A stretch of DNA of 64,000 bases from Candidatus Oxydemutatoraceae bacterium (GTDB lineage: Bacteria; Pseudomonadota; Gammaproteobacteria; Poriferisulfidales; Oxydemutatoraceae): positions 64,001 through 128,000 of the forward strand of contig CBDCOZ010000003.1 in NCBI GenBank assembly GCA_965220085.1, in the 5' to 3' direction. The position numbers and the translations under genes are program-made. The notes beneath the pieces are model-generated. The model saw only the letters and a program-made list of their open reading frames with translations, had not been told where the DNA came from and made no database searches. Numbering within the stretch: the first letter of the stretch is position 1; every line of letters begins with the position of its first letter. This document shows, piece by piece, positions 32,175 through 63,112 of the stretch.

Positions 32175-32393
32175 CGCCGACAGTGGGGATGTGTTTGAAC
32201 CCTCATGGGATTCTGCTATTGCAAAGTGACGGCGCACACCCCCACGCTTTGCAACTAAAATTAGGAGGAAATATCACATGCAGTTTTTATCAGACCCACA
32301 GGGTACACAAAACAACAATGCGGTTATGAAAATATCACATGCAGTCTTCACCGGACTCACAGGAGATCCTGGCAGTGTAGGATCATATTTATA

Positions 32394-32417
32394 CCCCCCC
32401 CCCCCCCCCCCCCCCCC
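32394..32417 (+). repeat. Poly-C tract (C24), putative phase-variation switch
   Basis: Lies between RBS-preceded ATG 32278 and the signal-peptide codons. Out of frame by 1. Confidence 0.8.
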
Positions 32418-32440
32418 TGCGCACATACGGGTGGGCAACG

Positions 32441-35110
32441 ATGACAGGGCGCGGTCTTTTTATGCTGGCACTGCTGGCTGTCTGCGCCCAAGCGCAGGCG
32501 CAGGCCAACAATGCCGCCACTGGTAATATATCTGTCGCCTACGCCAGCGGCACTGTGCCCACCGAGGATGTGCCGATAACCGCATCTGCAAGCAACATAG
32601 CCGATGACGATGGCGTGCCCGACCCGCTCAGCCTGAGCTGGCAATGGAGCCAGTCCAACGACAACGGCGTCACCTACGACGACATCACCGCCACCGCCGA
32701 AAACGGCGCGAACACCGCCACCTTCACCCCCGACCAGCCTCAGTCGAACAGGCTTCTGCAGGTCTGCGCATCGTTCGCCGACAACGCAAACAACTCCGAG
32801 AAGCTATGCCACCGGATAGCCACCAGGGTGGTCAATGTCAATGACCCGCCCGACAACCCCATGTTTACCGTTGGGGATCACTCAGACGGCCCTGCACTGA
32901 CTGGCGCACCCGTAGAGGACACGTCCATAACACTGGGATCCCAAGGCGTAAACGATGCCGACGGCTTTAGTGATCTCAACCGTACCACATATATTTGGAG
33001 CGCCGATAATGGCGGCGACGGGGTATTCACTGAAATCAGCAGACGAACCCTGTCTTTTACACCCGGCCAGGAACATGTCGGCAGTGTCATCCGCTGCTGT
33101 CTCACCTATAGGGATGACTTTAATGTCAGGGAAAGTTTCTGCATCATGACCCCCGAGCCGGTGGTCAACGCCAACGATGCGCCGGTGGCGCAACGAAGCA
33201 GTGTCGCGGTGCGCACCGATGCCACTTCCGCCGAGCCATATACATTCAAGCCATCCGACTTTCGCTTCGCCGATGAGGATGGCGATGCGTTGGCGAACAT
33301 CCGCATAACCGGCCTGCCCACTGGCAACTCCCAGGGTGTTGGCACTCTGCTCCTGAATGGCACCGCCCTGACCAGCGGCAACCTGCCGGTCACCTTGACA
33401 GCGGATGAACTTGATGACGGCGACCTCACCTATTATCCGACAGCCGGCAATGCGGCGGTCACCACCAGCAACAGCTTGTCAGCTGGATTCTATGCCCAAT
33501 TCAGCTTCAAGGTGGAGGACGATGGCGACGATATCAGGCTGGATGGCAATGGCGAAGAGATCGAGGCCAACGTAAGCGCCAACATCGGCTCCATGAACAT
33601 CCGTTTGGCAGACACCAGCGAGCAGGTCCCCGCCGGCGGCGCGCCCGCCATCTCCCCCTCGGGCGACAGCCACCGTCAGCACACCGTGCTGACCGCCGCA
33701 TACACCGACGATACCAACTTTATAATATTTGACCGCAACGGCATAGACGAGGGCACAGTCAGGTGGCAGTGGCAACAAGCCGCTCCGGTCAATGACGCGG
33801 TCCCCGCCGAAGCCAGCAGCGCCTGGACCAACATAACCGGGGCCACCGATGCCGCCTTCGCCCTGACCCAGGCCCAGGTGGGCATGCATACCCGCGTCCG
33901 CATCACCTTTGCCGATGGCCTGGGCAATACCGAGGGCCCGTTCTATTCCGCCTCCATCACGACCACCGATGTCGCCGATGCGCCAGTGGCGCCGGGTAAC
34001 ACCATCCCGGTGGCCGCGGGCCGCAGTTATGCTTTCTCGGCGGCTGATTTTCCGTCTAGCGACGAGGACGGGGATGCCTTGGTTCACATGCGACTGAGAA
34101 GTCTGCCTGACAACGGTACGCTGTCTCTCCGCCGCCCCGCCACCGCTACTGCTTCAACTTTAACGAGCGTTCCTGTAGTAGCATTCACAAGGGAAGAATT
34201 TGAGCAACTCGGAGAAGAAGGAGGGATCGAGTTGGTCTATGCCCCTCCCGCGGCTGCCACCACGCCCACGGCGAACTATGACAGATTTACGTACAGCGTC
34301 CAAACTGGCACGGATGCGGCGCCGAGCAACGAGGCCGTCATCACCATAGCCCTGGTGTCGGCCATGCAATCAACGGCAACCGGCGCGCCGACGGTGACAG
34401 CGGTTGCCGGCGCCGCCTACGCCGAGGACACGGAATTGACCGCCTCCGTCGACGACATCAGCGATGACAACGGCATAGACCGCAGAACCCTGATGTGGCA
34501 GTGGCAATCTGCCGCCGCCCCCGCTAACGGCACCGCCCCGGCGGTCAGAGCCTACGGTGCCATCGCCGGAGCCACCGCCGCCGCCTTCACCCCGTTGCAA
34601 ACCCATGTGGGCAGATACATCCGCGTCTGCCTGACATTCACCGACGGCATAGGCGAGCGCGAGGACCCGCTCTGTTCCGACGGTGAGCGGGTTGCCAATG
34701 TCAACGATGCGCCGATGACCGAAGACAGCGAAGTGTCCGTGCCCACCATGACCACCGAGGAGATGCCCTATGCATTCAAGGCGAGCGACTTCCCGTTTGC
34801 CGACGAGGACACCGGTGACTCTCTGCAAGGTATCACCATCACCGATGCGCCGGACAAGGGCGCTTTGTTGGTAGGCGGCGAAGCGCTGTTGACATCCGGC
34901 TCGAGCAAAAACAACGTGGTGTCTGTGTCCGACATCTCCATGCTCGCTTACTACCCGGCGGCCGATGCGGAAGCGGGGCGAAACTATGACTCATTTGAAT
35001 TCACTGTCAGCGATGGCACGGAGAGCAGCGTCGCCGCGTCAATGAGCATACATCTGGGGGCCGACCTGCGCTTGCGGTTGCGCATCTTCTTGGAGGGGCC
35101 GCTGCGATAG
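32441..35110 (+). CDS. Secreted cadherin/Ig-like repeat protein with C-terminal LRLRLRIFLEGPLR tag (member 1)
   Basis: Signal peptide ending AQAQA. NVNDAP...DF.F.DEDGD.L repeats alternate with WQWQQ...GAT..F...VG..IRV modules. The true start may be 32278 through the poly-C. Confidence 0.85.
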   Translation: MTGRGLFMLALLAVCAQAQAQANNAATGNISVAYASGTVPTEDVPITASASNIADDDGVPDPLSLSWQWSQSNDNGVTYDDITATAENGANTATFTPDQPQSNRLLQVCASFADNANNSEKLCHRIATRVVNVNDPPDNPMFTVGDHSDGPALTGAPVEDTSITLGSQGVNDADGFSDLNRTTYIWSADNGGDGVFTEISRRTLSFTPGQEHVGSVIRCCLTYRDDFNVRESFCIMTPEPVVNANDAPVAQRSSVAVRTDATSAEPYTFKPSDFRFADEDGDALANIRITGLPTGNSQGVGTLLLNGTALTSGNLPVTLTADELDDGDLTYYPTAGNAAVTTSNSLSAGFYAQFSFKVEDDGDDIRLDGNGEEIEANVSANIGSMNIRLADTSEQVPAGGAPAISPSGDSHRQHTVLTAAYTDDTNFIIFDRNGIDEGTVRWQWQQAAPVNDAVPAEASSAWTNITGATDAAFALTQAQVGMHTRVRITFADGLGNTEGPFYSASITTTDVADAPVAPGNTIPVAAGRSYAFSAADFPSSDEDGDALVHMRLRSLPDNGTLSLRRPATATASTLTSVPVVAFTREEFEQLGEEGGIELVYAPPAAATTPTANYDRFTYSVQTGTDAAPSNEAVITIALVSAMQSTATGAPTVTAVAGAAYAEDTELTASVDDISDDNGIDRRTLMWQWQSAAAPANGTAPAVRAYGAIAGATAAAFTPLQTHVGRYIRVCLTFTDGIGEREDPLCSDGERVANVNDAPMTEDSEVSVPTMTTEEMPYAFKASDFPFADEDTGDSLQGITITDAPDKGALLVGGEALLTSGSSKNNVVSVSDISMLAYYPAADAEAGRNYDSFEFTVSDGTESSVAASMSIHLGADLRLRLRIFLEGPLR

Positions 35111-35203
35111 CGCGAGCAATCCCATCGCAAGACTTGCGCTAACACGCTTCCTTGTGGCAAGCAATACTCTCCCCTTGTGGGAGAGTCAGCGAGCTTCGCT
35201 CGC
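35111..35203 (+). repeat. Post-gene repeat with REP-like hairpin
   Basis: CATCGCAAGACTTGCGCTAACA...ACTCTCCCCTTGTGGGAGAGT also occurs at about 38553-38642 and 41865-41940. Confidence 0.85.
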
Positions 35204-35400
35204 CGGAGAGGGGGAGAGTCGTGGGGTGCGCACAAGGGGGTGCGCATACCTCACTAAAGGTAGGCCGCTGCGATAGCACGAGAGCCCTGCAGCGGAAAAG
35301 GGGAGTGTTGTGCGGTGCGCACGAGGGAGTGCGCCTACCCCCTTTGAGGTATGCCGCTACGGAGGTGTTGTGGAGTCGCACAAGAAGGCGAGACAGTAGA

Positions 35401-35563
35401 CTTGCAAATGATCGGCACTTTGTGGTAGAGTACATTAAATGAGGGAAACACTGAACAACTCAACTCTTGCAAAGGACTCGCACTTTGTGGTAGAGTACAT
35501 CAAATGAGGGAAACATTGAATAACTCAACTCTTGCAAAGGACTCGCACTTTGTGGTAGAGTAC
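35401..35563 (+). promoter_or_regulatory. 65-bp tandem repeat giving three copies of a promoter-like motif
   Basis: CTTGCAAA...CACTTTGTGG-TAGAGTAC at 35401, 35466 and 35531. Single copies near 38826, 43912 and 45509. Confidence 0.7.
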
Positions 35564-35747: not shown

Positions 35748-35769
35748 CCCCCCCCCCCCCCCCCCCCCC
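35748..35769 (+). repeat. Poly-C tract (C22), putative phase-variation switch
   Basis: Follows AGGAG-ATG 35723 (MNKQVFNTA). Out of frame by 1 with the 35793 ORF. Confidence 0.8.
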
Positions 35770-35792
35770 TGCGCACATACGGGTGGGCAACG

Positions 35793-38396
35793 ATGACAGG
35801 CCGCGGTCTTTTTATGCTGGCACTGCTGACCGTCTGCGCCCAAGCGCAGGCACAGAACAATGCCGCCACCGGTAATATATCTGTCGCCTACGCCAGCGGC
35901 ACTGTGCCCACCGAGGATGTGCCGATAACCGCATCCGCGAGCAACATAGCCGACACCGATGGCGTGCCCGACCCGCTCAGCCTGAGCTGGCGATGGAAAC
36001 AGGTCCACCCCGTCAACAGCGCCATTACCGACATAGAGGGCGCCACCTCCGCCACTTTCACCCCCGACCAGCCCCAGGTGCGCTTTTTTCTGCGCGCCTG
36101 CGCATCGTTCACAGACAACGTCGGAAACAGCGAGGAGCTGTGCCACCAGATAGCCACCGCCGTGGCCAATGTCAATGACCCGCCCGCCCCCGTGCTTACC
36201 ATTGGAAGCGACCTGAACTCCCCTGAACTGACCGGCGCACCCAGAGAGGGCGCATCCTTAACACTGGCAGGCTCCAACATAAACGACCCCGACGGCGTCG
36301 ATGAGTTTTTCTCCCAATCCCTATGGATTTGGGACCAGGACGATGGCGGCAACGGGGTATTCGTCAATGTGCTCACATCGAGCAACGCCGCCGCATTCAC
36401 CCCGACTCAGGAACATGTCGGAAATCGCATCCGCGGCTGTATCAGGTACAGAGATGACTTTAGTGCCATGGAAAAGGCCTGCGTCACCACCCTGCCGGTG
36501 GTCAACGCCAACGATGCGCCGGTGGCGCAACTCGGCAGAGTGGCGGTGCCCGTCAACGCCACCTCCGCCGAGCCATATCCATTCAAGCCGACCGACTTCC
36601 CATTCACCGATGAGGATGGCGATGCGCTGGCGAAAGTCCAAATAACCGCACTGCCCACTGGCGGCGGCCAGGGTGGCGGCACTATGGCCAGGAATGGCGC
36701 CGCCCTGACCAGCGGCGACCTGCCGGTCACCCTGACAGTGGCGCAACTTGAGGCTGGCAACCTGACCTATTATCCGACTGCCAGCAATGCGGAGGTCACC
36801 ACCAGCAACAGATTGTCATCTGGATTCTATGCCCAATTCAGCTTCAAGGTGGAGGACGATGGCAGCGATGGCGAGGATGACAAAGTTAGCGTGGATGCCG
36901 CCACAATCAACATCCGCCTGGTATCCACCAGCCAGGCCGCCGCCGGAGGTGCGCCCGCCATCACCCCCTCGGGCGCCAGCCAACCCCAGCACACCGTGCT
37001 GACCGCCGCATACGATGACGGCACGAACTTTATAATATTTGACCGCAACGGCATAGACGAGGGCACAGTCAGGTGGCAGTGGCAGCAAGCCGCCCCGGTC
37101 GATGGCGCGGCCCCGCCGCCGACAAGCAGTGCCTGGACCAACATAACCGGGGCCACCGATGCCGCCTTCGCCCTGACCCAGGCCCAGGTGGGCATGCATA
37201 CCCGCGTCCGCATCACCTTTGCCGATGGCCTGGGCAATACCGAGGGCCCGCTCTATTCCGCCTCCATCACGACCGCCGATGTCGCCGATGCGCCGGTGGC
37301 GCCGGGCAATACCATCCCCGTGGCCGCGGGCCGCAGTTATGATTTCTCGGCGGATGATTTTCCGTTTAGCGACGAGGACGGGGATGCCTTGGTTCACATG
37401 CAATTAGTCAGTCTGCCTGACAACGGTACGCTGTCTCTCCGCCGCCCCGCCACTGCTACTGCCTCAACTTTAACGAGCGTTCCCGGAGCATTCACAAGGG
37501 ACGAATTGGAACAACTCGGAGAGGAAGGAGGGATCGAGTTGGTCTATGCCCCTCCCGCGGCTGCCACCACGCCCACGGCGAACTATGACAGATTTACGTA
37601 CAGCGTCCGAACCGGTACGGGCGCGGCGCAAAGGGATAGCAACGAGGCCGTCATCACCATAGACCTGGTACCGGCCACGCAATCAACAGCAACCGGCGCG
37701 CCGACGGTGACAGCGGTTGCCGGCGCCGCCTACGACGAGGACACGGAATTGACCGCCTCCGTCGACGGCATCAGCGATGGCAACGGCATAGACCGCAGAA
37801 CCCTGATGTGGCAGTGGCAACAGTCCGCCACTCAGGCCGGCACCTACGCCGACATCGCCGGGGCCGCCGCCGCAGCCTTCACCCCGTTGCAAGCCCATGT
37901 CAACCGATACATCCGCGTCTGCCTGACATTTGAAGATGGCATAGACACGACCGAGGGCCCGCTCTGTTCCGCTGGTGCGCGGGTTGCCAATGTCAACGAT
38001 GCGCCGACGACCAAAGACAGCGAAGTGTCCGTGCCCACCATGACCACCGAGGAGATGCCCCATGCATTTCAGAAGAGCGACTTCCCGTTTGCCGACGAGG
38101 ACGCCGACGACTCTCTGCGAAGTATCGCTATCACCAGCACGCCGACCGCAGGCATCTTGCGCGCGGGGACGACGAGAATCACCGCAAGCAATGTGCCATA
38201 CGAGGTAGAGGCAGACGACATCTCCATGCTCGCCTACTACCCGGCGGACGATGCGGAAGCGGGGCGAAACTATGACTCATTTGAATTCACTGTCAGCGAT
38301 GGCACGAAGAGCAGCGCCGCCGCGTCAATGAACATCCATCTGGGGGGCGACCTGCGCTTGCGGCTGCGCATCTTCCTGGAAGGGCCGTTGCGGTAA
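35793..38396 (+). CDS. Secreted cadherin/Ig-like repeat protein with C-terminal tag (member 2), mosaic paralogue of member 1
   Basis: Long near-identical blocks shared with 32441-35110. Ends LRLRLRIFLEGPLR. Confidence 0.85.
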   Translation: MTGRGLFMLALLTVCAQAQAQNNAATGNISVAYASGTVPTEDVPITASASNIADTDGVPDPLSLSWRWKQVHPVNSAITDIEGATSATFTPDQPQVRFFLRACASFTDNVGNSEELCHQIATAVANVNDPPAPVLTIGSDLNSPELTGAPREGASLTLAGSNINDPDGVDEFFSQSLWIWDQDDGGNGVFVNVLTSSNAAAFTPTQEHVGNRIRGCIRYRDDFSAMEKACVTTLPVVNANDAPVAQLGRVAVPVNATSAEPYPFKPTDFPFTDEDGDALAKVQITALPTGGGQGGGTMARNGAALTSGDLPVTLTVAQLEAGNLTYYPTASNAEVTTSNRLSSGFYAQFSFKVEDDGSDGEDDKVSVDAATINIRLVSTSQAAAGGAPAITPSGASQPQHTVLTAAYDDGTNFIIFDRNGIDEGTVRWQWQQAAPVDGAAPPPTSSAWTNITGATDAAFALTQAQVGMHTRVRITFADGLGNTEGPLYSASITTADVADAPVAPGNTIPVAAGRSYDFSADDFPFSDEDGDALVHMQLVSLPDNGTLSLRRPATATASTLTSVPGAFTRDELEQLGEEGGIELVYAPPAAATTPTANYDRFTYSVRTGTGAAQRDSNEAVITIDLVPATQSTATGAPTVTAVAGAAYDEDTELTASVDGISDGNGIDRRTLMWQWQQSATQAGTYADIAGAAAAAFTPLQAHVNRYIRVCLTFEDGIDTTEGPLCSAGARVANVNDAPTTKDSEVSVPTMTTEEMPHAFQKSDFPFADEDADDSLRSIAITSTPTAGILRAGTTRITASNVPYEVEADDISMLAYYPADDAEAGRNYDSFEFTVSDGTKSSAAASMNIHLGGDLRLRLRIFLEGPLR

Positions 38397-38483
38397 TGGC
38401 AAACACACGCGCACAAGTGAGTATTGCCATTGAAGGCGGCGCCGATGGTCGGACTCAAGCCGGCGCGGCTTACGCCCGCGTCA

Positions 38484-38552
38484 ATGAACATCCATCTGGG
38501 TGCCGATCTGCGCTTGCGCTTGCGCATCTTCCTGGAGGGGCCGTTGCGATAG
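38484..38552 (+). repeat. Orphan duplicate of the C-terminal tag (MNIHLGADLRLRLRIFLEGPLR*)
   Basis: Copy of the last 22 codons of member 2 with mostly synonymous changes. Confidence 0.85.
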
Positions 38553-39073: not shown

Positions 39074-39096
39074 CCCCCCCCCCCCCCCCCCCCCCC
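39074..39096 (+). repeat. Poly-C tract (C23), putative phase-variation switch
   Basis: Follows ATG 39052 (MKQKIFNT). Out of frame with the 39114 ORF. Confidence 0.8.
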
Positions 39097-39113: not shown

Positions 39114-41864
39114 ATGATTCGGCGCTTCCTCTTGTTGCTGGTTCTGCTTGCCCTGTTTGCCGTCTACACCCAGGCCCAGGCCCGCACCGACCAGACAGCG
39201 GGTGACTTCGTAGCGCCGGTCGTCCCCCAGGCTGCGCCCATTGCCGTAGGCCCTTCGGCGCCCGTGGGGGCGCTGACCAGCGCCACCGCCGACAATCCGC
39301 ACTACTTCACGGCCAATGACTTCGGTTTTGTGGACTTCGACGGCGACCGTCTGCAAAGTGTGATCATAAAGACTCTGCCGAATCTTGGCACCCTGAGGGT
39401 AGGCGCCGCTAATGTTGTCATAGGCGCCAACAATACTGTGGCGATGATGGCCATCGCCACCCTGAACTATTACCCCCCATCGGGTCAGTCCCCGCAATCG
39501 AACTACGCCAGTTTCACCTTCAGTGTCACCGCCGGCGATGAGGAATCCAACATCGCCGCCGTCCGCATAGACCTGCGCGCAACCGCTCAGGTGGCCGCCA
39601 CCGGCATGCCCGACATAGCATCTGTGCGCTCCGGCCTGCTCAATGCCGCCCATTACGACAAGGACGAGGAGCTGTTTGGCCTGGCCATTTTCAACGGCAT
39701 CACCAACCTGCAAGTCCAACGCAGCTCAATCATCCAGAACGGCGGCGCGACCGCCTTTGCCTCCGCCGCCTTAGGCGCCATCAGCGACCACAACGGCATC
39801 GGCTCAAGCATCAGTTGGCAATGGCAACAGTCCGCTACCAGCGATGGCACATATGCGCCCGTCAGCGGTGCCAACCCAGTCAGAGTCACCACAACCATCA
39901 ACAGAATCACCCCGCGCCAGGCCCAGGTGGGCAAATACATCCGCGCCTGCGTCACCTTCAATGACCTCCACGCCACCTCCAACTCCGAGACGCTGTGTTC
40001 CGCCAGCGCCCGCATAGTGGATGGCGGCGAACGCCCTGCCGGCGGCGACAGCACCGTCAGTGTGCCGGACAACGCCAACGCCGCCAGCCCGCACCGCTTT
40101 GCCGCCGCCGACTTCCCCTTCAGCGATACGGGCGGCGATACCATCAACGGCATCCGCATAATATCCCTGCCCTCCAGGGGCACGCTGGCGGTGGCGGGCG
40201 ATACCAATGTCACCATAGCCGTCGGCACCGAACTCAGCCAGGCGCAGTTGAACGCCCTGGCCTACTACCCGGATGCCTACGCCAGCCCCGAGCCGGGCTA
40301 TGCCACCTTCACATACCGGGTACACGATAGCGGCAGCGATGACGCCACCAACACCGCCACCGGCGATTCCACCCTTACCATAGATCTGGCTCCCACCACC
40401 ACAGAACAGGTCGCCGCCAGCGGTCGCCCGGACTTTACCGGCGGCGCCACCCAGGGCCAGACCCTGAGCGCCGCCATCGGCACAGTGCGCGATGCCAACG
40501 GCATCAACCGGGATACCATCGCCTGGCAATGGTATCAAGCCCCCACCGATGCCGATGTTTTTCCCCCTACCGGCGACTTCGTCCCCATAGCGGATGCCGC
40601 AGAGGCCGAGCTTGTGCTCACCCAGGCCCAGGTGGGGCATCTTGTGCGCGTCTGCATCAGTTTCACCGACACCCACAGCGCCCCCAACCCCGAAGGCCCG
40701 CTCTGCTCCATCATCTTTTTCATACAGAACATCAACGATGCCCCCACCGGCGACGACACCATTGTGATGGTACCTGCCGCCGCCGCCGCCGCCAGCCCGC
40801 ACAACTTTGAGCGCGGCGATTTTCCATTCATGGATATAGATGGCGATGATCTGGCCGGCATCCGCATAGCCAGCCTGCCGACAGGCGGCACGCTGGTGGT
40901 GGCGGGCGATGCCAGTGTCACCATAGCCGTCGGCACCGACCTGACTCTGGCACATCTGGATGCTCTGGCCTGGTATCCCCATGACAACGCCACCCCAGGC
41001 AATGGCTACGACAGTTTCACCTACTGGGTGCGCGATGATATGGGCGGAAGCGCCTCCATCGCGCAGGACGCATCCACCCTCACGATAGATCTCATCAGCG
41101 CAACCCCGACCGCCGCCGGCGGTCAGCCCGCCATCAGCGGCGCCGCCACCCAGGGCCAAACCCTGAGCGCCGCCATCGGCACAGTGCGCGATGCCAACGG
41201 CCTGAACCCCGCGACCTTGCGTTGGCAATGGTATGCGGCCGCGCCGGACGACGGCTCGGCGCCGGCGGCGGACAGCAGCGCCTGGGCCGCCATAGCCGAT
41301 GCCACCGCCGCCGCCTTCATCCCGGCCCAGGCCCAGGTGGGCATGCACATCCGCGTCTGCGCATTCTTTATGGACAGCCACGCCACCAGCCCGGCAGCCG
41401 AAGGCGGCACCGTCGTCGCTCCCACGCTGTGCTCCGCAGCCAGTGCGCAGGTTGCCAATGTAAACGATGCGCCGATGACCGAAGACAGCGAAGTGTCCGT
41501 GCCCGCCACGGCCACTGCGATGATGCCCTATGCATTCAAGGCGAGCGACTTCCCCTTTGCCGATGAGGACGGTGACTCTCTGCAAAGTATCACCATCACC
41601 GGCATGCCGACCAAGGGCGCCTTGCGCGCGGGTACGACGATTATCACCGCAAGCAATGTGCCATACGAGGCAAGCGACATCCCCGAACTCAACTACTACC
41701 CGGAGGTGACCGAGACTGAAGTGGAAGCGGAGCGAAACTATGCCTCATTTCGATTCACTGTCAGCGATGGCATGGCGAGCAGTGCGCCTGCCACCATGAG
41801 CATACATCTGGGTGCCGACCTGCGCCTGCGCTTGCGCATCTTCCTTGAAGGGCCGCTGCGATAG
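39114..41864 (+). CDS. Secreted cadherin/Ig-like repeat protein with C-terminal tag (member 3)
   Basis: Signal peptide, four cadherin-like and three Ig-like modules. Ends LRLRLRIFLEGPLR. Confidence 0.85.
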   Translation: MIRRFLLLLVLLALFAVYTQAQARTDQTAGDFVAPVVPQAAPIAVGPSAPVGALTSATADNPHYFTANDFGFVDFDGDRLQSVIIKTLPNLGTLRVGAANVVIGANNTVAMMAIATLNYYPPSGQSPQSNYASFTFSVTAGDEESNIAAVRIDLRATAQVAATGMPDIASVRSGLLNAAHYDKDEELFGLAIFNGITNLQVQRSSIIQNGGATAFASAALGAISDHNGIGSSISWQWQQSATSDGTYAPVSGANPVRVTTTINRITPRQAQVGKYIRACVTFNDLHATSNSETLCSASARIVDGGERPAGGDSTVSVPDNANAASPHRFAAADFPFSDTGGDTINGIRIISLPSRGTLAVAGDTNVTIAVGTELSQAQLNALAYYPDAYASPEPGYATFTYRVHDSGSDDATNTATGDSTLTIDLAPTTTEQVAASGRPDFTGGATQGQTLSAAIGTVRDANGINRDTIAWQWYQAPTDADVFPPTGDFVPIADAAEAELVLTQAQVGHLVRVCISFTDTHSAPNPEGPLCSIIFFIQNINDAPTGDDTIVMVPAAAAAASPHNFERGDFPFMDIDGDDLAGIRIASLPTGGTLVVAGDASVTIAVGTDLTLAHLDALAWYPHDNATPGNGYDSFTYWVRDDMGGSASIAQDASTLTIDLISATPTAAGGQPAISGAATQGQTLSAAIGTVRDANGLNPATLRWQWYAAAPDDGSAPAADSSAWAAIADATAAAFIPAQAQVGMHIRVCAFFMDSHATSPAAEGGTVVAPTLCSAASAQVANVNDAPMTEDSEVSVPATATAMMPYAFKASDFPFADEDGDSLQSITITGMPTKGALRAGTTIITASNVPYEASDIPELNYYPEVTETEVEAERNYASFRFTVSDGMASSAPATMSIHLGADLRLRLRIFLEGPLR

Positions 41865-42209: not shown

Positions 42210-43150
42210 ATGAAAAAAACTAAAGACTTAAAAGCAGAAGATACGGCGGGGGTTGCTTATGACCCCGTCGATAACTTGACCGGCGCGGGCTTTGACAAAC
42301 AGAAAGCAGACGCGATTGCCAACGAGCAACTTGCGCTGGTGCGCAGACATCTGCGCACTCTGCTAACCAGAGAAGAGTTTGCCAAGTTTGAAGCAGTGAC
42401 TCAAAAAGAATTTGACAAGTTTGAGTTAGCGCTCAAAGAAAACAGGGCTCAGTGGAAAGAAGAGTTAGACAAGTTTGAGTCAGCCATGAAAGAAGCGCTG
42501 ACCGGTTAGCGACGAAAGAAGAATTGGCCGCTCTTGAAGCAGCCATGAAAGAAGAGCTGACCAAGTTGAGAGAAGCGTTAGACAATCTGGCGACGAAAAA
42601 AGAGATTGCCGAGTTCAAGTCAGAGATCAAAGAACACATAAATCAGTTGGAAAAAGAGCTGACCAAGTTGAGCGAAGAATTGACCAATCTGACGACGAAG
42701 AAAGAGTTAGGCGAGTTCAGCTCAGAGATCAAAGAAAACATAGATCGGTTGGAAAAAGAATTGGCTCGGTTGAGAGAAAAGTTAATTCAGTTTGAATTGG
42801 CAATAAAAGAAGGCTTAGCCAAGTTCAAGTCAGAAACCCAAAAAGACATAGCGCAGTTGCAAAAAGAATTGGACGAGTTCAAGTCAGAAATCAAAAAAGA
42901 GATGAATCAGTTGAGAAGAGAGATAACTGAGTTGAGAAAAGAATTGACCAAGGTGAGAGAAGCGTTAACCGATCTGGCAACCAAAAAGGAGTTAGCCGAG
43001 TTCAGAAAAGACATGGAAAATATGGCAACCAAAAAAGATCTGGAAAATCTGGCGACTAAAGAAGACGTGGCTAAGGCGACAATAGGAATCATAAAGTGGC
43101 TTGTATTAACCGCACTTGCGTTAGCGGCTGCGATAGCCGCATTTATGTGA
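42210..43150 (+). pseudogene. DUF1640/CCDC90-like coiled-coil protein with C-terminal TM segment, frameshifted near 42505
   Basis: AGFDKQKADAI head, repeated LATKKEL necks, C-terminal IIKWLVLTALALAAAI. Split into 42210-42509 and 42524-43150. Confidence 0.75.
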
Positions 43151-43479: not shown

Positions 43480-43790
43480 ATGCGGAAACTTAATAATGTT
43501 TACACCAATTTACCCCCCGCGCTGGCGGGCAACGATGGCTCGGTTTGGTCTCTTGTTACCGTCGGTGATGCGGCGCAGCCTCCGGCTACTGGTTCTGCTG
43601 ACCCTGTTGGTTATCTGTGCGCAGGCGCAGGCGCAGAACAAAGCCGCCACCGGCGCACCAGCGGTCACGGCGGCAGACAGTGCCGACCTGACCATGGTGG
43701 GGGCCCAATGAGGACATCTTTCTCACCGCCGCCAGAGTCGCCGGTTTGCTCTTGCGGTTGCGTATCTTCTTGGAAGGCCCGCTACGATAG
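43480..43790 (+). pseudogene. Internally deleted member of the tagged family (signal peptide joined almost directly to the tag)
   Basis: LLVICAQAQAQNKAATGAPAVTAADSADLTMVG matches the 5' end of 45702-46912. ARVAGLLLRLRIFLEGPLR* matches its 3' end. Confidence 0.8.
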
Positions 43791-44138: not shown

Positions 44139-45386
44139 ATGAAGCGAAAAACTTTTAACACTACCCCCCCCCCCCCCCCCCTTAAAATTTTTGGAGGGGT
44201 TTGCGCGGCGATGATGGCCGCTTTGTGTTTCGCATTCGCCGAAACCGCCCAAGCGCAAACCGAAGAATGCCCCGAAGGGGAAACGCGAGTCACGTCAACC
44301 AACAACGGCGCCGGCTGCTTCCCCAACGCCGCAGTTGACATTCTAATGCAATGCGAAGCAGCGGGATGGCTGGGCCGGGAAACGCCCGGCACATTTGTTG
44401 GCCGAGGGGAATTGGGTTGCGGAATCCCCTCATTGCTTTACACATCAGACACCGCCTCCTCCGGATTTTTTTGCTTCCTCCAAGAGCAATCCTCCCTTGG
44501 CGTGAATAGGTCTTGCACGGCAATGTATGGCGACCCGCCGGTCTTTCCGAAAGCGGCGGACCATCCCAATGTCCAAACCGACGGCCTTTCAGCCGGGCCG
44601 CGCTTTGTCGCAAACTGCGACCAGGACGGAGATGCCCCCGGCGGTTATCCGCCCGACCGCAACTTGAACGGCGAAACCGAATGCGTCTGCAATCCGAATT
44701 CGCACTTCGGCGACTGGCCGGACTGCACGGCCTTTCCGACCGGCGCGACGGCGGCGGATAGGGCGAAGGCGCTCAAATGTGTGGCGCAAGGGTGGACTAT
44801 TTCCACCGGCACCGCCCCCATCAAATGCGAAGTCCCGCTGACCTCCGGCGGCGCCGTTTTTGACGGGTGCTTTTTCGGTTCGGGTTCGCCGCTGTGCGCG
44901 GATGTGTTCGGCACGGAGTTCGCCGTGCCGGAAAAGGAGCCTCCGGAATGGGTTTTGAATCTTGCCAACGCCTTCGTCGCAAAGTCCCGAGACGCAACGC
45001 TTACCGATACGGTTAAAGCCGCCGCGGCGGTTTACGCGGCGGCGGTGTGGGCGCGATACGACGGCGATTCGGATTATCTGGACGGCCCCACCGGCAACCA
45101 CGACAGCAGCAGCGACGACGACAAAACCAGCATTGCCCTTTTGGTTTCGGGTCCGGTTTTCACGGCGCATGGAATTCCGTTTGAGTGGCAGCCGGATTTG
45201 TTCCGGATACCGCCTGCGATTCGGCTGGCGTACAGTCGTATTCCGGTGGCGGTTCCGTATGTTTTCAATTGCGGGGAGGGCATGTCTCCGGCAACGGCCA
45301 ACACGGACGGCGCGACGGCATGCGCGGTCGCCGACTCGCCCCTGCGCTTGCGGTTGCGCCTCTTCTTGGAAGGCCCGCTGCGATAG
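44139..45386 (+). CDS. Secreted Cys-rich protein with C-terminal tag; in-frame C18 tract (ON)
   Basis: MKRKTFNTTPPPPP, signal peptide ending AQAQ, Cys-rich modules, LRLRLRLFLEGPLR. RBS AGGAG. Confidence 0.85.
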   Translation: MKRKTFNTTPPPPPLKIFGGVCAAMMAALCFAFAETAQAQTEECPEGETRVTSTNNGAGCFPNAAVDILMQCEAAGWLGRETPGTFVGRGELGCGIPSLLYTSDTASSGFFCFLQEQSSLGVNRSCTAMYGDPPVFPKAADHPNVQTDGLSAGPRFVANCDQDGDAPGGYPPDRNLNGETECVCNPNSHFGDWPDCTAFPTGATAADRAKALKCVAQGWTISTGTAPIKCEVPLTSGGAVFDGCFFGSGSPLCADVFGTEFAVPEKEPPEWVLNLANAFVAKSRDATLTDTVKAAAAVYAAAVWARYDGDSDYLDGPTGNHDSSSDDDKTSIALLVSGPVFTAHGIPFEWQPDLFRIPPAIRLAYSRIPVAVPYVFNCGEGMSPATANTDGATACAVADSPLRLRLRLFLEGPLR

Positions 45387-45701: not shown

Positions 45702-46912
45702 ATGAATAAACAAGTTTTTAATACTGCCCCCCCCCCCCCCCCCCCTCGCACTGGAGGACAGCACTAACCCGGCTTAGCCTCTGGTCGCTTATTCTGCCGG
45801 CCCTGCTCGCCGTCTGCGCTCAGGCGCAGGCGCAGAACGCCACCGGCGCACCGGCGGTCACGGCGGTGGACAGTGCCGACCTGACCATGGTGGGACCCAA
45901 TGAGAGCATCTCTCTCGTCGCCGCCCGGGGCACCATAGCCGATGCCGATGGCATAACCACATTCGCGCCCGCCTGGCAGTGGCGACAGGCCGATGCCCCG
46001 ACCTCCGGCACCCCGGCGGACAGCGCCTACACCGCCATAGCCGATGCCACCACCGCCATCTTCGTGCCCCGGCAGGCCCAGACCGGCAAGTTTCTGCGCG
46101 TCTGCGCCACCTTTGACGATGATGCCGGCAACAGCGAGACCCGATGCTGGACCTCCGTCGCCGCCGTTGTTGATGTCAACAATGCACCCACCACCGGCTC
46201 CAACCCTGTGGATGTGCCATCCAATGCCACTGCCGCGGCACCATACACCTTTAAGGAATCCGACTTCCCATTCATGGATGCGGACGGCGACACCCTGTTC
46301 GGAATCATCGTAGTCGAAAACCCGGACTCAAGCAAGGGCACATTGCTCCATGCGGGCGCGGCCATAGCCGATGGTGGCAACATACCCCGGTCCGGTCTGG
46401 GCCAGATCACCTACTACCCTGATGTGGGCGCCAGGCCCAAAGTCAACTATGACAGTTTCACCTTCCGGGTGCAGGACAGCAGCACCGACAGACTGACCAG
46501 CAATCTCCGCGCCATAATCATCAACCTCCGCAATCCCAATCAGGTGGCCGCCACCGGCACTGCCACCATAACCCCGGCCACCACCGCCGACAACCCCACC
46601 CACGCCGAGGGCACCGGGCTGTTCGCTTCCATCCTGCGAATCAGAGACGACAACGGCATAAACGCCAGCACCGTGGAATATGAATGGCAACAGTCCGCCA
46701 GTGCCAATGGCCCGTTCACCGCCATAGCCGGGGCCACCGCCAACGCATTCACCCCGGAGCAGGCTCAGGCGGGGAAGCACATCAGAGTCTGCATAAGTTT
46801 TATGGATTCTCACAGCACCCCCAACGACGAGGGGCCGTTCTGCTCTGCCGCCGCCAGAGTCGCCGGTTTGCGCTTGCGGTTGCGCCTCTTCTTGGAAGGC
46901 CCGCTGCGATAG
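45702..46912 (+). CDS. Secreted Ig/cadherin-like protein with C-terminal tag; C19 tract out of frame (OFF)
   Basis: AGGAG-ATG 45702 (MNKQVFNTA), C19 at 45727-45745. The downstream frame encodes the signal peptide LWSLILPALLAVCAQAQAQ with no ATG of its own. Confidence 0.8.
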
Positions 46913-47655: not shown

Positions 47656-47700
47656 CTGCGCCTGCGGCTGCGTCTCTTCCTGGAAGGCCCGTTGCGATAG
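47656..47700 (+). repeat. Orphan copy of the C-terminal tag coding sequence
   Basis: Reads LRLRLRLFLEGPLR* with no passenger gene upstream. Confidence 0.85.
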
Positions 47701-59179: not shown

Positions 59180-59215
59180 CGCGAGCGGCTACAATGTCGT
59201 CAAAAGAGGAGAGCA

Positions 59216-59959: not shown

Positions 59960-60546
59960 GTGTGGATGCTGATTTTGCCGCAGTGATAGAGAAAGCGGTC
60001 AACGCCTGTCTCCGCTATGACGCGCGCGCGAGCGACGAGCTGCGCCCTCTGCGCGGCAAAGTCATCGGCTTTGACATCGCCACTTTTGACAAGCGCATTT
60101 TTTTCCTGCCGCGCGCAGACGGGACGCTTGAGGTTGTCGCCGAGTGCGACGGCGAGCCGGATACCTTGATCAAGGCGCGGGCGGCGGATTTTTTCCGTCT
60201 TGCCGTCGGCGATGACAGCGAAGCAAGAGCCGAGATTTCCGGCGACATCAATTTGGGCGACGCCTTTCGGCGCATATTCCGGCACATAGATTTTGACTGG
60301 GAAGAGTTGCTCGCCCCGTGGCTCGGGGATGCGCTTGCAAACGAGATCGGGCGCGGCGCGCGAGATGTTCTCGGCTGGCTGAAGTACTGCGGCGGCGCGT
60401 TGTCCGACAACGCCGGCGAGTACCTGCGCGACGAGACACGACAGGCGGTCGATCGCGATGAGGTCAATGACTTCATTCAAAAAGTCGACAGCCTGCGCGA
60501 TGCGGTCGACCGCTGCGAAGAGAAACTGAACCGGCGCGGGCGCTGA
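59956..60546 (+). CDS. ubiJ: Ubiquinone biosynthesis accessory factor (SCP2 domain)
   Basis: Follows ubiE. ISGD, DWEELLAPWLGD, EYLRDE and LRDAVDR. Confidence 0.88.
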   Translation: MSVDADFAAVIEKAVNACLRYDARASDELRPLRGKVIGFDIATFDKRIFFLPRADGTLEVVAECDGEPDTLIKARAADFFRLAVGDDSEARAEISGDINLGDAFRRIFRHIDFDWEELLAPWLGDALANEIGRGARDVLGWLKYCGGALSDNAGEYLRDETRQAVDRDEVNDFIQKVDSLRDAVDRCEEKLNRRGR

Positions 60547-60635
60547 TGCGACCAATCGCACAAACGAACACTCCGCCTTGCGCGAAGCGCGTGCTTGGGG
60601 ATGTATAATGAAGGTTTCATGCGGGATGACTCATA

Positions 60636-61508
60636 ATGTTTCACATCGGCTCACACTTTAGAATGTGTGCGCTTTGCGCGGCGATGATGCTCGCCGCCGC
60701 GGATGCCCTTGCGCAAACCTCCGGTAACGAATGCGCCGCCGGAACGGAGTCGGTCACGGCGCATTCCACAACCGCGTGTCTTCCGTCCGCCGCCGCACAA
60801 GCGTTTCGGGACTGCCGCGACGCGGGATGGACTGTCATGTTGACTGCTACGTCGTCAGTTTGCAGTATGCCGTTTCGCCTTTACGGCGCAACGCAAAACT
60901 CCGGCGTCTCCGGCTCGGACTGCCTGATTCACGGCATAATGTCCACCACCGCCTGCTCCGACATTTTCGGGACCCCGCCCAAGTTTCCCAAAGCATCTGA
61001 CCATACCGATGTTGTCGTCAATGACATCAACACCAAGCGTTTTCAAGCCAACTGCGACCTGTCCGGCAACGCCCCCGGCGGTTATCCGCCCGACCACAAC
61101 TTGAACGGCGAAACCGAATGCGTCTGCGATCGGGCCTCGTACGTCGACCCATGGCCGAACTGCACACCCTTTCCGACCGGCTTAACCTCCGCCGAGCGGG
61201 AGGGGATTCGCGCATGTACGGATCAAGGCTGGACTATTTCCACCGCCACCGCCTACTTCAAATGCGACATCCCGCTGACCTCCGGCGAGGGAAATTCTGA
61301 CGGGTGCGTTTTCGGCGAGGGTACGCCGCAGTGCGCGGATGTATTCGGCGAGCAGATCATCCTGCCGGAAAAGGAGGATTCGGTTCGGTATGTTTTCAGC
61401 TGCGGGGCGGGCATGTCTCCGGCGGGTGCGAATCTGAATGGCGCGACGGAATGCGTTCAAAACCTGCTCTTGCGGCTGCGCCTATTCTTGGAAGGCCCGT
61501 TGCGGTAG
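60636..61508 (+). CDS. Secreted Cys-rich protein with C-terminal tag (no poly-C); paralogue of 44139-45386
   Basis: Signal peptide ending ALAQ, shared ANCD..G.APGGYPPD.NLNGETECVC block. Ends LLLRLRLFLEGPLR. Confidence 0.85.
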   Translation: MFHIGSHFRMCALCAAMMLAAADALAQTSGNECAAGTESVTAHSTTACLPSAAAQAFRDCRDAGWTVMLTATSSVCSMPFRLYGATQNSGVSGSDCLIHGIMSTTACSDIFGTPPKFPKASDHTDVVVNDINTKRFQANCDLSGNAPGGYPPDHNLNGETECVCDRASYVDPWPNCTPFPTGLTSAEREGIRACTDQGWTISTATAYFKCDIPLTSGEGNSDGCVFGEGTPQCADVFGEQIILPEKEDSVRYVFSCGAGMSPAGANLNGATECVQNLLLRLRLFLEGPLR

Positions 61509-61788
61509 CGGGTATCCTGCGGCGGAGAAGGGGAGTGAAGGTGTGCAGGGGTGAGACAGGAGGCGCTTGCACACAACCGAATGTGTGGTATAGTGCGACA
61601 TCCTTTTGACGCAAGTGCAGATGAAACTTGCGAATGATTGAATGTGTGGTATAGTGCAAGACTTATATTGAGCAAACGCCTTCGCTGGCCACGAGTTATC
61701 AGGAGTAACAGATATGAATAAACAGATTTTTAATATACTACTCTTCAGAGGAAGCGACCCAATGTGTCGCGCCATTATAGGTAAAAGC

Positions 61789-63112
61789 ATGAACAAAAAA
61801 GTTATTAATACTACCCCCCCCCCCCCCCCCCCACCCACCCCTGAACAGAAGGCGGCGATGACCCGGCGTAGCCTCTGGTTGCTGGTCATGCTCGCCCTGT
61901 TCGCCGTCTGCGAACAGGCACAGGCGCAGGACACCGCACCGGACTTTGGCAATGCGCAGGTGACTGGTTCGGATCTGATCTGGCTGACCGACCGAGACCT
62001 CAATCTGATCTTGCCCGCGGCTACCGGCGGCAACGGCGCCATCACCTACAGCTTGTCGCCGGTCCTGAACAACGCTTCCGGCCTGACCTTTGATGCGGCT
62101 ACTCGCACCATCAGCGGCCGACCGGCTTTGTCTGTCGGTACCAACGACTACACGCTGACAGCCACCGATGCCGACGGCGATACCGATACGCTGACATTTA
62201 GGGCCGAAGCGCAAGCCGATTCGGCGCCGGCCTTTGCCGATGATGCCACCGTTGCCAACCAGACCTGGATATCGCATCTTGCCATTAATCTGGCGTTGCC
62301 CGCAGCCAGCAGCGCTACCGCGGGTAATATCCTCCTTGATGCCGCACAGACGCAAAACTTGGCTCCGCTCACCTATGCCCTGACCCCGGCTTTGCCTGCG
62401 GGCTTGCGCTTTGATGCCGACACCCGCACCATCAGCGGCGCACCCGCCGCTACCGCAACCGCCATCACCTATGCCTACACGGTCGCCGATGGCGACAGCA
62501 ATACCTCGCCCGACGATGCGGATACCCTGACGTTCGCCATCGCCATCAATGCCACTTCTTGCGCCGATGGCAAGGTGCCGCTGGACGGGGACGACTCGTG
62601 CGTGACTCCGGCGGAGAAATGCGCGATGAGGGGATGGGACAAAACCACCGGAGCGGTTTGCCATTTTGGAAACAGGGGGGGACTACGCGATTTACGATCT
62701 CAGAAACTTCACCGGCAATCTCATCAACACCGATAGCGACGGCTTATGCAACATAACACCCGGCGCGGCAAGCGGCATTTCGGAATGCACAGATGTGTTT
62801 GGCCCGAATTATGAGTTTCCCCAAATTCCGAATCCGGCTGTGCTCACCCGCTATGTTTACAACTGCGACCCGGACGGGACGCGCGGTCTGGTTCCGGCGA
62901 CTTACAACGCCATCGGCGCCATAGGTTGCGCTTGCGCCAATCCCGCCAAGGTTCCGCGCGATGCGATTTTCGGCAATTTAGCCAACGGTCCCCGAGTGAT
63001 GCTTACCGGCCAATGCGCTTGTCCGGAGGGGACGACGGAGAATGCGGCCGGCGCTTGCGTTGCGGCTCTGCGCCTGCGGCTACGCCTTTTTCTTGAAGGC
63101 CCGCTACGGTAG
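61789..63112 (+). CDS. Secreted putative-Ig (He_PIG-like) plus Cys-rich protein with C-terminal tag; C19 in frame, frameshift at G7 (62675-62681)
   Basis: MNKKVINTTPPPPPP, LPAATGGNG...GLTFDAATRTISG repeats. Loss of one G joins it to 62666-63112, which ends in the tag. Confidence 0.75.

What the first reader, a model, noticed from the sequence alone, without database searches (positions are those of the whole stretch)
32278..63112. Family of exported proteins sharing a 14-residue C-terminal tag L[RL]LRLR[IL]FLEGPLR*: candidate undescribed sorting or docking system
Seen: ten copies of the tag plus stop codon, ending at 35110, 38396, 38552, 41864, 43790, 45386, 46912, 47700, 61508 and 63112, in two loci. 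The tag caps unrelated passengers (cadherin/Ig-like repeats, Cys-rich modules, putative-Ig repeats), all with Sec-type signal peptides ending in A-x-A-Q. DNA differences between copies are mostly synonymous (ctg/ttg/ctt/cta, gag/gaa, ggg/ggc, cga/cgg, tag/taa), so selection acts on the peptide, not on a DNA site. Established: it does not fit PEP-CTERM, GlyGly-CTERM or LPxTG (no TM helix), the autotransporter beta-signal (no terminal aromatic, no barrel) or the much longer T9SS CTD. Inference: the alternating L-R pattern is an amphipathic beta-strand used either as a signal for an unknown outer-membrane translocon or anchor, or as a donor strand that completes a partner domain and so allows plug-in display of interchangeable adhesins. 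From memory and unverified, similar 'VFLEGP' strings start internal domains in some bacterial surface proteins, which would fit a split-domain model.
Basis: partly seen in the sequence, partly recalled or inferred. Interest (0 to 1): 0.9.

Follow-up and report, generated by a model that had tools for sequence, protein, structure and literature searches.

The report
Undescribed C-terminal tag on surface proteins
About one gene in ten of this small sponge-type gammaproteobacterial genome ends in the same 14-residue peptide, an apparently undescribed address label for exported adhesin-like proteins that replaces a known membrane-anchor signal found on the same proteins in related bacteria.

Summary
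All ten copies lie at the stated ends. The genome (2.49 Mb) holds 211-219 copies, each followed at once by a stop. Residues are nearly invariant while codons and all three stop codons vary, so selection acts on the peptide.

A broader form, [IL]R[ILV]Rx[KR]VFLEG[PA]L[QRE]-stop, occurs in 13 of 19 genomes of the same family. It was found in 0 of 34 genomes of three sister families, and only at chance level in 400 genomes of the class. No Pfam or NCBIfam model covers it. No paper in the searched library holds the motif.

AlphaFold leaves the tag unstructured beyond two different, complete passenger folds. In two passenger families, homologues in tag-free relatives end instead in Gly-rich, hydrophobic-helix, basic tails resembling GlyGly-CTERM.

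Best reading: a lineage-specific sorting or surface-retention tag without a membrane helix. No partner was identified. Also seen: 80 of 85 long poly-C tracts lie in the 5' leaders of tagged genes, suggesting phase variation.

The parts
35066..35110 (+). tag copy 1 (14 codons plus TAG), end of gene 32441-35110
38352..38396 (+). tag copy 2 (plus TAA), end of gene 35793-38396
38508..38552 (+). tag copy 3, orphan: a 156-nt duplicate of the preceding gene's 3' end (open frame 43 aa)
41820..41864 (+). tag copy 4, end of gene 39114-41864
43746..43790 (+). tag copy 5, orphan remnant (open frame 32 aa)
45342..45386 (+). tag copy 6, end of gene 44139-45386
46868..46912 (+). tag copy 7, end of gene 45866-46912
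47656..47700 (+). tag copy 8, orphan (open frame 24 aa)
61464..61508 (+). tag copy 9, end of gene 60636-61508
63068..63112 (+). tag copy 10, end of the frameshifted gene 61789-63112
32441..35110 (+). tagged gene, 889 aa: signal peptide, then Ig-like and cadherin-like (Big_9, Cadherin_3/4) repeats
35793..38396 (+). tagged gene, 867 aa, paralogue of the previous gene
39114..41864 (+). tagged gene, 916 aa: signal peptide and Big_9 repeats
44139..45386 (+). tagged gene, 415 aa: signal peptide and a Cys-rich passenger with no Pfam hit
45702..46912 (+). tagged gene. Leader ATG at 45702, poly-C tract, signal peptide and 348-aa Ig/cadherin-like body. The leader ATG is out of frame with the body in this assembly.
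60636..61508 (+). tagged gene, 290 aa: signal peptide and Cys-rich passenger
61789..63112 (+). tagged gene: leader, He_PIG repeats and Cys-rich end. It is split into two frames near a G7 run at about 62660.
32394..32417 (+). poly-C tract (24 nt) in a 5' leader
35748..35769 (+). poly-C tract (22 nt) in a 5' leader
39074..39096 (+). poly-C tract (23 nt) in a 5' leader
44164..44181 (+). poly-C tract (18 nt) in a 5' leader
45727..45745 (+). poly-C tract (19 nt) in a 5' leader
61814..61832 (+). poly-C tract (19 nt) in a 5' leader

Best explanation
The peptide is a lineage-specific C-terminal sorting or surface-retention tag for Sec-exported, mostly adhesin-like proteins.

Form. Its consensus in this genome is [LIV]R L R L R [LIV] F L E G P L R-COOH. 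Family-wide it is [IL]R[ILV]Rx[KR]VFLEG[PA]L[Q/R/E]-COOH. It has no membrane-spanning helix.

Proposed mechanism (inferred, not shown):
1. The protein crosses the inner membrane by Sec.
2. It leaves the periplasm, most plausibly by the type II secretion system that the genome encodes.
3. It is held at the cell surface by the tag. The tag forms a ten-residue amphipathic beta-strand with an aliphatic face and an Arg/Lys face, followed by a Gly-Pro turn and exactly three more residues.
4. This strand docks by strand addition onto an outer-membrane component, either a protein or the anionic lipopolysaccharide.

The tag does the job that the GlyGly-CTERM/rhombosortase anchor does for homologous proteins in tag-free relatives. 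In this genome the repertoire has expanded to about 190 genes. Many of them also carry a poly-C tract that would switch expression on and off.
For: Shown:
- Peptide-level purifying selection across 219 copies, with all three stop codons used.
- The same tag with completely different codons in other genera. It occurs in 13 of 19 family genomes, with 1 hit to the reversed control pattern among those 19 genomes.
- It always sits at the exact C-terminus: 117 of 141 further database hits.
- Most tagged ORFs have an N-terminal signal peptide: 149 of 188 by a crude regex, and several of the 39 misses show one by eye.
- Passengers are cadherin/Ig-like repeats, Cys-rich modules, subtilisin-like and trypsin-like proteases and PPC repeats. 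These are typical surface or secreted cargo.
- AlphaFold folds two passenger types completely and leaves the last 14 residues as low-confidence coil. Pfam Cadherin_3 and Big_9 profiles end 4-6 residues before the tag.
- Alternation with an established kind of anchor, first family: the trypsin-like passenger ends in a Gly/Ser-rich, hydrophobic-helix, basic tail in G012 and G001. It ends in the tag in G007, G015 and G009, and carries the tag N-terminally in this genome.
- Alternation, second family: a giant repeat adhesin ends in GGGGG, helix, KRR in the tag-free G005 but in the tag in G003 and G012.
- A complete gspC-D-A-E-F-G-J-K-L cluster is present. Only one Omp85 gene is present in each of the 19 family genomes, so there is no TamA or TpsB route.

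From papers (search listing and start of abstracts only):
- GlyGly-CTERM is a Gly/Ser motif, a hydrophobic region and positive residues on the serine protease VesB, processed by rhombosortase (PMC6219818).
- VesB is a surface-retained type II secretion substrate (PMC13393428).
Against: - No localisation or processing data exist.
- No partner gene was found. Three candidates tested across five relatives do not track the tag: an unknown outer-membrane protein, a FadL-like protein and a PilMN-like protein beside a second secretin.
- Rhombosortase and the single BamA are present in tag-bearing and tag-free genomes alike.
- The tails resembling GlyGly-CTERM in relatives were judged by eye. The four full-length protease homologues scanned at E<=1, two of which carry such tails, matched no NCBIfam sorting-signal model. 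The TIGR03501 model also found nothing in this genome at E<=1.
- Type II secretion of 4,000-15,000-aa proteins would be unusual.
- The last residue varies between R, Q and E among genera, so a simple charge rule at the terminus does not hold.
- Three proteins carry the tag internally, so a free carboxyl end may not be needed. Yet the spacing of three residues between the conserved Gly and the stop is fixed.
Confidence: 0.5

Rival explanations
1. The tag is a translocation signal rather than an anchor. It is a linear C-terminal export signal read in the periplasm, by the type II secretion system or by an unknown outer-membrane translocon, after which the proteins are released or held by other means.
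For: - Sec signal peptide plus a conserved C-terminal peptide.
- A full type II secretion system and a second secretin-ATPase locus are present.
- GspC has a PDZ-like C-terminal domain, a fold that reads C-termini (2i4s, E 0.0076).
- The distance from the conserved Gly to the carboxyl end is fixed.
Against: - Type II substrates are not known to use linear signals (established knowledge).
- The terminal residue is polar and varies (R/Q/E), unlike usual PDZ ligands.
- The tag also works, or at least persists, near the N-terminus in three proteins.
- The type II system is expected in tag-free relatives too (inferred from rhombosortase in 18 of 19 genomes).
Confidence: 0.2
2. The tag is a self-assembly tag. 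The alternating Leu/Arg strands of many different proteins pair with each other into sheets, knitting the adhesins into a shared surface layer or matrix.
For: - A perfect ten-residue amphipathic alternation.
- The same tag on about 190 different proteins.
- It is disordered in monomer models.
- It is usable at either end of a protein.
Against: - No test was run.
- A sticky strand on 10% of the proteome would risk aggregation in the periplasm.
- The invariant FLEG-P-L part suggests recognition by something specific rather than generic pairing.
Confidence: 0.1
3. The tag is a processing or recognition site for a protease, for example the trypsin-like enzyme that itself carries the motif before a GGSSS linker. 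The C-terminal copies would then mimic the product end and serve for regulation or turnover.
For: - Three proteins have ...FLEGPLR followed by GGSSS.
- One of them has a weak Trypsin_2 match (E 0.019) with His and Ser motifs seen by eye.
Against: - In other genera the tag ends in Q or E, which does not fit an Arg-specific cut.
- The 219 copies already end at the stop, so nothing is left to cleave.
- The protease passenger occurs in tag-free relatives too.
Confidence: 0.07
4. The conserved 42 bases act mainly at the DNA or RNA level, as a recombination or gene-conversion boundary or as a 3' regulatory element. The peptide would then be a by-product.
For: - Orphan and tandem copies of gene 3' ends exist: 30 short copies, with tandem 156-168-nt repeats.
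- Sequence after the stop is shared within subsets of copies.
Against: - Variation is concentrated at synonymous sites, and all three stop codons are used.
- Other genera keep the peptide with unrelated codons, for example AGA-ATC-AGG-GTG against CGC-TTG-CGC-CTC.
- Rfam finds nothing there.
Confidence: 0.03

Closest known systems
GlyGly-CTERM / rhombosortase (TIGR03501 / TIGR03902)
   Same: - A short C-terminal signal on many Sec-exported proteins of one genome, including a trypsin-like protease.
- It occurs in Gammaproteobacteria with a type II secretion system.
- In this family the two kinds of ending alternate on homologous passengers.
- Rhombosortase is present here.
   Different: - The tag has no Gly-Gly motif, no hydrophobic helix and no basic tail.
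- It cannot sit in the inner membrane for a rhomboid protease to cut.
- Rhombosortase is present whether or not the tag is.
- This genome keeps only two tails resembling GlyGly-CTERM.
PEP-CTERM/exosortase, LPXTG/sortase, MYXO-CTERM and related tripartite sorting domains
   Same: A many-to-one design: one conserved C-terminal signal on dozens to hundreds of unrelated surface proteins, restricted to a lineage.
   Different: All of these are tripartite (motif, transmembrane helix, basic cluster) and are cut by a membrane enzyme. The tag is 14 residues long, amphipathic rather than hydrophobic, and ends three residues after its Gly. No NCBIfam model hits it.
Outer-membrane protein beta-signal / autotransporter C-terminus
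   Same: A C-terminal amphipathic beta-strand on exported proteins. Homologous repeat proteins in a sister family do end in a barrel-type ...LQLQGRW.
   Different: There is no terminal aromatic residue and no barrel domain before the tag. The strand's polar face is Arg/Lys-rich.
T9SS C-terminal domain
   Same: A C-terminal signal on Sec-exported adhesins and proteases that directs them to the surface.
   Different: From recalled knowledge, the T9SS domain is a folded domain of about 70-100 residues in Bacteroidota. Here the tag is 14 unstructured residues in a gammaproteobacterium.
Donor strands of chaperone-usher and type V pili; cationic amphipathic LPS-binding strands (recalled)
   Same: A short strand of alternating hydrophobic residues that completes or binds a partner. 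Alternating basic and hydrophobic residues are typical of peptides that bind lipid A.
   Different: No acceptor domain, usher or chaperone was identified, and no binding was tested. These are resemblances of mechanism only.

Membership tests
GlyGly-CTERM (TIGR03501) | Gly/Ser-rich motif, then a hydrophobic transmembrane helix, then basic residues at the C-terminus | tested here: not met
   The tag has no run of hydrophobic residues. TIGR03501 gives no hit in the genome at E<=1. NCBIfam gives no hit on tails at E<=10.
GlyGly-CTERM (TIGR03501) | Co-occurrence with rhombosortase as the dedicated processing enzyme | tested here: inconclusive
   Rhombosortase scores over its cut-off in 18 of 19 family genomes whether or not the tag is present, so it does not track the tag.
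PEP-CTERM / LPXTG / other tripartite sorting signals | Signature motif plus transmembrane helix plus basic cluster; a model in NCBIfam | tested here: not met
   No NCBIfam family covers the tag in 6 full proteins at E<=1 or in 7 tails at E<=10. The sequence has no helix.
Outer-membrane beta-barrel / autotransporter beta-signal | Terminal aromatic residue, and a barrel domain of which the strand is the last member | tested here: not met
   The last residue is R, Q or E. The models show beta-sandwich or Cys-rich folds with the tag as coil.
T9SS C-terminal domain | Folded C-terminal domain of about 70-100 residues (TIGR04183 or TIGR04131 type) | tested here: not met
   The conserved part is 14 residues and no such model hits. 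The presence of T9SS genes was not tested.
Type I secretion C-terminal signal | No Sec signal peptide; an uncleaved C-terminal signal of about 50-60 residues; adjacent ABC, MFP and TolC genes | tested here: not met
   Most tagged ORFs have an N-terminal signal peptide. Conservation ends 14 residues from the terminus. Type I secretion genes were not searched.
   P0009 model (pLDDT 90.7): the last strand is residues 330-333 and the tag residues are coil with block pLDDT 53-72. P0011 model (pLDDT 70): residues 277-290 score below 50. Only two passenger types were modelled.
Phase-variable contingency loci (for the poly-C tracts) | Long homopolymer inside or just after the start of the reading frame, with lengths in all three phases, and length variation within a population | tested here: inconclusive
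   80 of 85 tracts of 11 or more C lie at the 5' ends of tagged genes. Length mod 3 is 24/25/31, with 15 in frame and 53 out of frame. Read-level variation could not be checked because the read tools were unreachable. Homopolymer errors in the assembly cannot be excluded.

The most novel reading that the evidence does not exclude
This is a new kind of protein-sorting system in a double-membraned bacterium. A 14-residue C-terminal strand with no membrane helix docks by strand addition into an outer-membrane acceptor or onto lipopolysaccharide. It thereby gives plug-in surface display of about 190 interchangeable adhesins, which are also phase-variable. The system evolved within one symbiont family as a replacement for the GlyGly-CTERM/rhombosortase anchor.
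Probability: 0.35. Interest if true: 0.9.

Novelty: new variant of a known kind. Interest (0 to 1): 0.8.

Why it matters
All described many-to-one C-terminal sorting signals use a membrane helix and a membrane-embedded processing enzyme. These include LPXTG, PEP-CTERM, GlyGly-CTERM, PGF-CTERM and MYXO-CTERM. A short tag without a helix, doing the same job on up to a tenth of a genome's genes, would point to a different way of holding proteins on a Gram-negative surface.

It would also give a compact, transferable display tag. And it marks the likely host-interaction repertoire of an uncultured lineage whose relatives are labelled as sponge-associated. That repertoire takes up about 19% of the genome and appears to be switched gene by gene through poly-C tracts.

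Tried and rejected
Partner search by presence or absence across five relatives (G003 and G009 carry the tag; G008, G001 and G005 do not):
- An unknown 449-aa outer-membrane protein is present in 5 of 5.
- A FadL-like protein is absent from tag-bearing G003 and present in tag-free G008 and G001.
- A PilMN-like protein beside the second secretin is present in 4 of 5, including tag-free G001 and G005.
- None of the three tracks the tag.
- Omp85 copy number is one per genome in 19 of 19, so there is no extra paralogue.
- Rhombosortase is present in 18 of 19, so it does not discriminate.
- Genes between the two window loci are housekeeping: DAP decarboxylase type, methyltransferases, DUF484, XerC-type recombinase and UbiE.
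- The C1 locus around the N-terminal-tag genes holds Fic, MBL-fold and Cache-like proteins and nothing that suggests machinery.

Complex prediction with GspC residues 60-283, GspD residues 25-250 and the tag alignment gave 'no answer' (score 0.00). It counts neither for nor against binding.

Other dead ends:
- Ten outer-membrane candidates were picked by a signal peptide and a terminal aromatic residue. Pfam showed ordinary porins, a TonB-dependent receptor, CopB and LppC, or non-membrane proteins.
- Single-linkage clustering of passengers merged 177 of 180 and was useless for counting families. I used junction classes instead.
- The Cys-rich passenger model has no PDB fold match.
- The strict tag pattern found nothing in 185,579 species genomes. 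Only a relaxed pattern revealed the relatives.
- My first paper search was swamped by the surname Flegal and was repeated without that term.
- My crude signal-peptide test on database hits gave 34 of 79. It is too strict to be informative, since the same threshold gave 39 of 189 in this genome.

Tools that did not answer:
- The look-up of sequencing runs was unreachable four times, so read laying was never used. Neither expression nor poly-C length variation could be checked.
- Supplements of papers were not consulted.
Full report
OBSERVATION

Six-frame translation of the window finds exactly ten copies of the peptide ...RLR[LI]FLEGPLR followed at once by a stop. Seven cap long open frames and three are orphans behind a nearby stop. 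One orphan, at 38508-38552, belongs to a 156-nt duplicate of the preceding gene's 3' end.

The window lies in a 2.49-Mb, three-contig genome of 55.6% G+C, rated 99% complete. That genome holds 219 copies by peptide regex. By DNA patterns it holds 211-214, against 0 matches to the reversed control patterns.

Of the 219 copies, 189 end ORFs of 80 aa or more and 30 are short or orphan. Eight tagged ORFs have 3,997-15,193 aa. Tagged ORFs sum to about 479 kb, or 19% of the genome. This is an overestimate, because each ORF was started at its first possible start codon.

PEPTIDE, NOT DNA

Across the 219 copies the residues F, L, E, G, P, L, R are kept in 215-219 copies each. Third codon positions and Leu first positions vary freely. 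The stop is TAG 138 times, TAA 53 and TGA 28. Conservation drops to background about 14 residues upstream and about 6 bases downstream. Longer shared stretches after the stop exist only within subsets of recent duplicates. Rfam finds only a tRNA in the window.

DISTRIBUTION

- The exact form is unique to this genome. It is found in 0 of 40 relatives and in 0 records of 185,579 species genomes. In a profile search of 5.8 billion proteins, all 47 hits with E<0.1 lie on this genome's own contigs.
- A giant ORF of a same-family genome (G007) ends ...IRIRAKVFLEGPLQ. This led me to relaxed patterns.
- FLEGPLx-stop occurs in all 5 genomes of genus g3 (11-34 copies) and in 1 of 5 of g4.
- The general form [RK]h[RK]h[FL]L[EGD]Gxxx-stop occurs in 13 of 19 family genomes. 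Counts are 213 in this genome, 8-22 in g3 (5 of 5), 5-27 in g4 (4 of 5) and 4-33 in g5 (3 of 3). It is absent from g2 (0 of 4) and g6 (0 of 1). The control gave one hit in all.
- Sister families of the order have none: 0 of 16, 0 of 17 and 0 of 1.
- In a sample of 400 genomes from 240 families of the class, FLEGPLx-stop gave 6 single hits against 6 control hits.
- A scan of all species genomes returned multi-hit records only under the labels Candidatus Oxydemutatoraceae, candidatus Porisulfidus and 'uncultured Chromatiales'. The rest were singletons in unrelated taxa.
- A cross-genus profile against 1.84 billion representatives gave 156 hits at E<=0.001. Of the 141 new ones, 117 carry the tag at the exact C-terminus. 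About 5 more are cut off within the tag or run 1-4 residues past it. The remaining 19 or so I read by eye as passenger-only matches.
- The family consensus is G-[IL]-R-[ILV]-R-x-[KR]-V-F-L-E-G-P-L-[QR]. Genus g4 uses ...FLEGAL[EQ] and g5 uses ...FLGGMIR or ...LLGGATR.

NOT A KNOWN SIGNAL

Pfam and NCBIfam scans of full proteins and of 40-45-residue tails at E<=10 hit only passenger domains. The Cadherin_3 and Big_9 profiles end 4-6 residues before the tag begins. Five of the six motif strings I searched occur in no paper of the library. The sixth occurs only in an unrelated duck proteomics paper.

ANATOMY OF THE PROTEINS

- Most tagged ORFs carry a signal peptide, often ...LPALFVVCAQAQAQ: 149 of 188 by a crude regex.
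- Passengers are mosaics of a few modules: Ig-like and cadherin-like repeats, Cys-rich modules with no family or fold match, He_PIG repeats, subtilisin and others.
- The AlphaFold model of the Ig/cadherin type has pLDDT 90.7 and resembles protocadherins and bacterial RTX-adhesin repeats.
- The tag follows at least eight kinds of terminal context after a linker of 2-8 residues.
- In both AlphaFold models the passenger fold is complete and the last 14 residues are low-confidence coil.

INTERNAL COPIES

Three proteins of this genome share a different signal peptide. It is followed by about 25 residues, the tag, a GGSSS linker and then a passenger. One passenger has a weak Trypsin_2 match (E 0.019) and two are PPC repeats. 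So the tag can sit at the N-terminal end of a mature protein.

ALTERNATION WITH A KNOWN ANCHOR TYPE

The trypsin-like passenger has homologues in all five relatives tested. Their endings differ:
- In G012 and G001 they end in a Gly/Ser-rich stretch, a hydrophobic helix and basic residues.
- In G007 the ending is ...IRLRIKLFLEGPLQ.
- In G015 it is ...IKLRIKVFLESSMQ.
- In G009 it is ...VRLKVLLGGATR or ...KLRLRVFLGGMIR.

A second passenger family, a giant repeat adhesin, shows the same pattern:
- It ends in the tag in G012 and G003.
- In the tag-free G005 it ends in GGGGG, a helix and KRR.

These tails look like GlyGly-CTERM as the abstract of PMC6219818 describes it (seen in the search listing). 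The TIGR03501 model did not score them, so the likeness is by eye.

Rhombosortase is present in 18 of 19 family genomes. This genome keeps only two such tails.

A complete type II secretion cluster is present, plus a second secretin-ATPase locus. Each family genome has a single Omp85 gene. In a sister family, homologous repeat proteins end in a barrel-type ...LQLQGRW.

INTERPRETATION

What is shown: a family-restricted C-terminal peptide, under selection as a peptide, sits on Sec-exported proteins of surface type. It lies outside the passenger fold and is interchangeable in evolution with a helix-type anchor signal.

What is inferred: it directs sorting to, or retention at, the cell surface, most plausibly after type II secretion. 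It would act as a ten-residue amphipathic strand (aliphatic face, Arg/Lys face) that adds to a partner sheet or binds anionic lipopolysaccharide.

No partner was found. Three candidates do not track the tag, and one complex prediction gave no answer. I put 0.5 on a sorting or retention tag. I put 0.2 on a pure translocation signal, 0.1 on self-assembly, 0.07 on a protease-recognition role and 0.03 on a DNA-level role.

PHASE VARIATION

Each tagged gene of the window that has a leader carries a poly-C tract of 18-24 nt. The tract lies just after a short conserved start (MNKQVFNT...) and before the hydrophobic core of the signal peptide.

Genome-wide, 80 of 85 tracts of 11 or more C lie at the 5' ends of tagged genes. 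Tract lengths fall evenly into the three phases (24/25/31). Of the 68 with a recognisable leader ATG, 15 are in frame and 53 are out of frame.

Long poly-C tracts also occur in g4 and in the tag-free g2, but hardly at all in g3 and g5. The two traits are therefore independent and are combined in this genome.

Homopolymer errors in the assembly cannot be excluded, and reads could not be examined.

VERDICT

The tag matches no described sorting signal and fails the defining features of each family considered. Its function class, a C-terminal sorting tag, is supported indirectly. Its mechanism is open.

Noticed in passing
window 32394-32417, 35748-35769, 39074-39096, 44164-44181, 45727-45745, 61814-61832; genome-wide: Poly-C tracts of 18-24 nt (up to 28 elsewhere) sit in the 5' leaders of tagged genes, encoding a proline run. 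Genome-wide, 80 of 85 long tracts are at such genes, with all three length phases about equally common (15 in frame, 53 out). This looks like slipped-strand phase variation of about 80 surface-protein genes. Long poly-C tracts also occur in two other genera of the family, independent of the tag.
   Followed up: partly
window 38397-38552; also G000 C3 about 513700-514200 and 908950-909460: Tandem repeats of 156-168 nt that copy a gene's last 40 or so codons, the tag, the stop and the downstream spacer. They give strings of orphan tag copies.
   Followed up: partly
window 61789-63112: One tagged gene (He_PIG repeats plus a Cys-rich end) is split into two overlapping frames near a run of seven G at about 62660. 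This is either a real frameshift or a homopolymer error.
   Followed up: partly
window 42524-43150: A 208-aa ORF inside the tagged-gene cluster has a repetitive coiled-coil-like sequence (repeated KELxEF units) and a hydrophobic C-terminal segment. It has no tag and no annotation.
   Followed up: no
G000 C1:23865-25292, C1:36355-38001, C3:1171407-1173515: Three proteins carry the tag near the N-terminus, after a distinct signal peptide and before a GGSSS linker. Two are PPC-repeat proteins and one is a divergent trypsin-like protease.
   Followed up: yes
G009 (same family), C1 about 284-441 kb and 2450-2583 kb: About 30 matches to the trypsin-like passenger lie in giant open frames of 3,100-3,630 aa. 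This is a separate large expansion in another genus. One of these ORFs ends in a variant tag.
   Followed up: partly
G000 C3:559000-564300 (locus L247): A compact locus holds a PilN-like 479-aa protein, a 202-aa unknown, a 459-aa secretin and a 404-aa T2SSE-type ATPase, with no pilin gene noticed nearby. It lies beside bamB and der.
   Followed up: partly
window 31810-31895 (- strand): A tRNA-Leu(CAA) gene lies directly upstream of the first tagged-gene cluster.
   Followed up: no
G000 C1:28700-31500 (locus L124 10745-13507): Two adjacent Fic/DOC-family genes (372 and 370 aa) lie between the N-terminal-tag genes.
   Followed up: no
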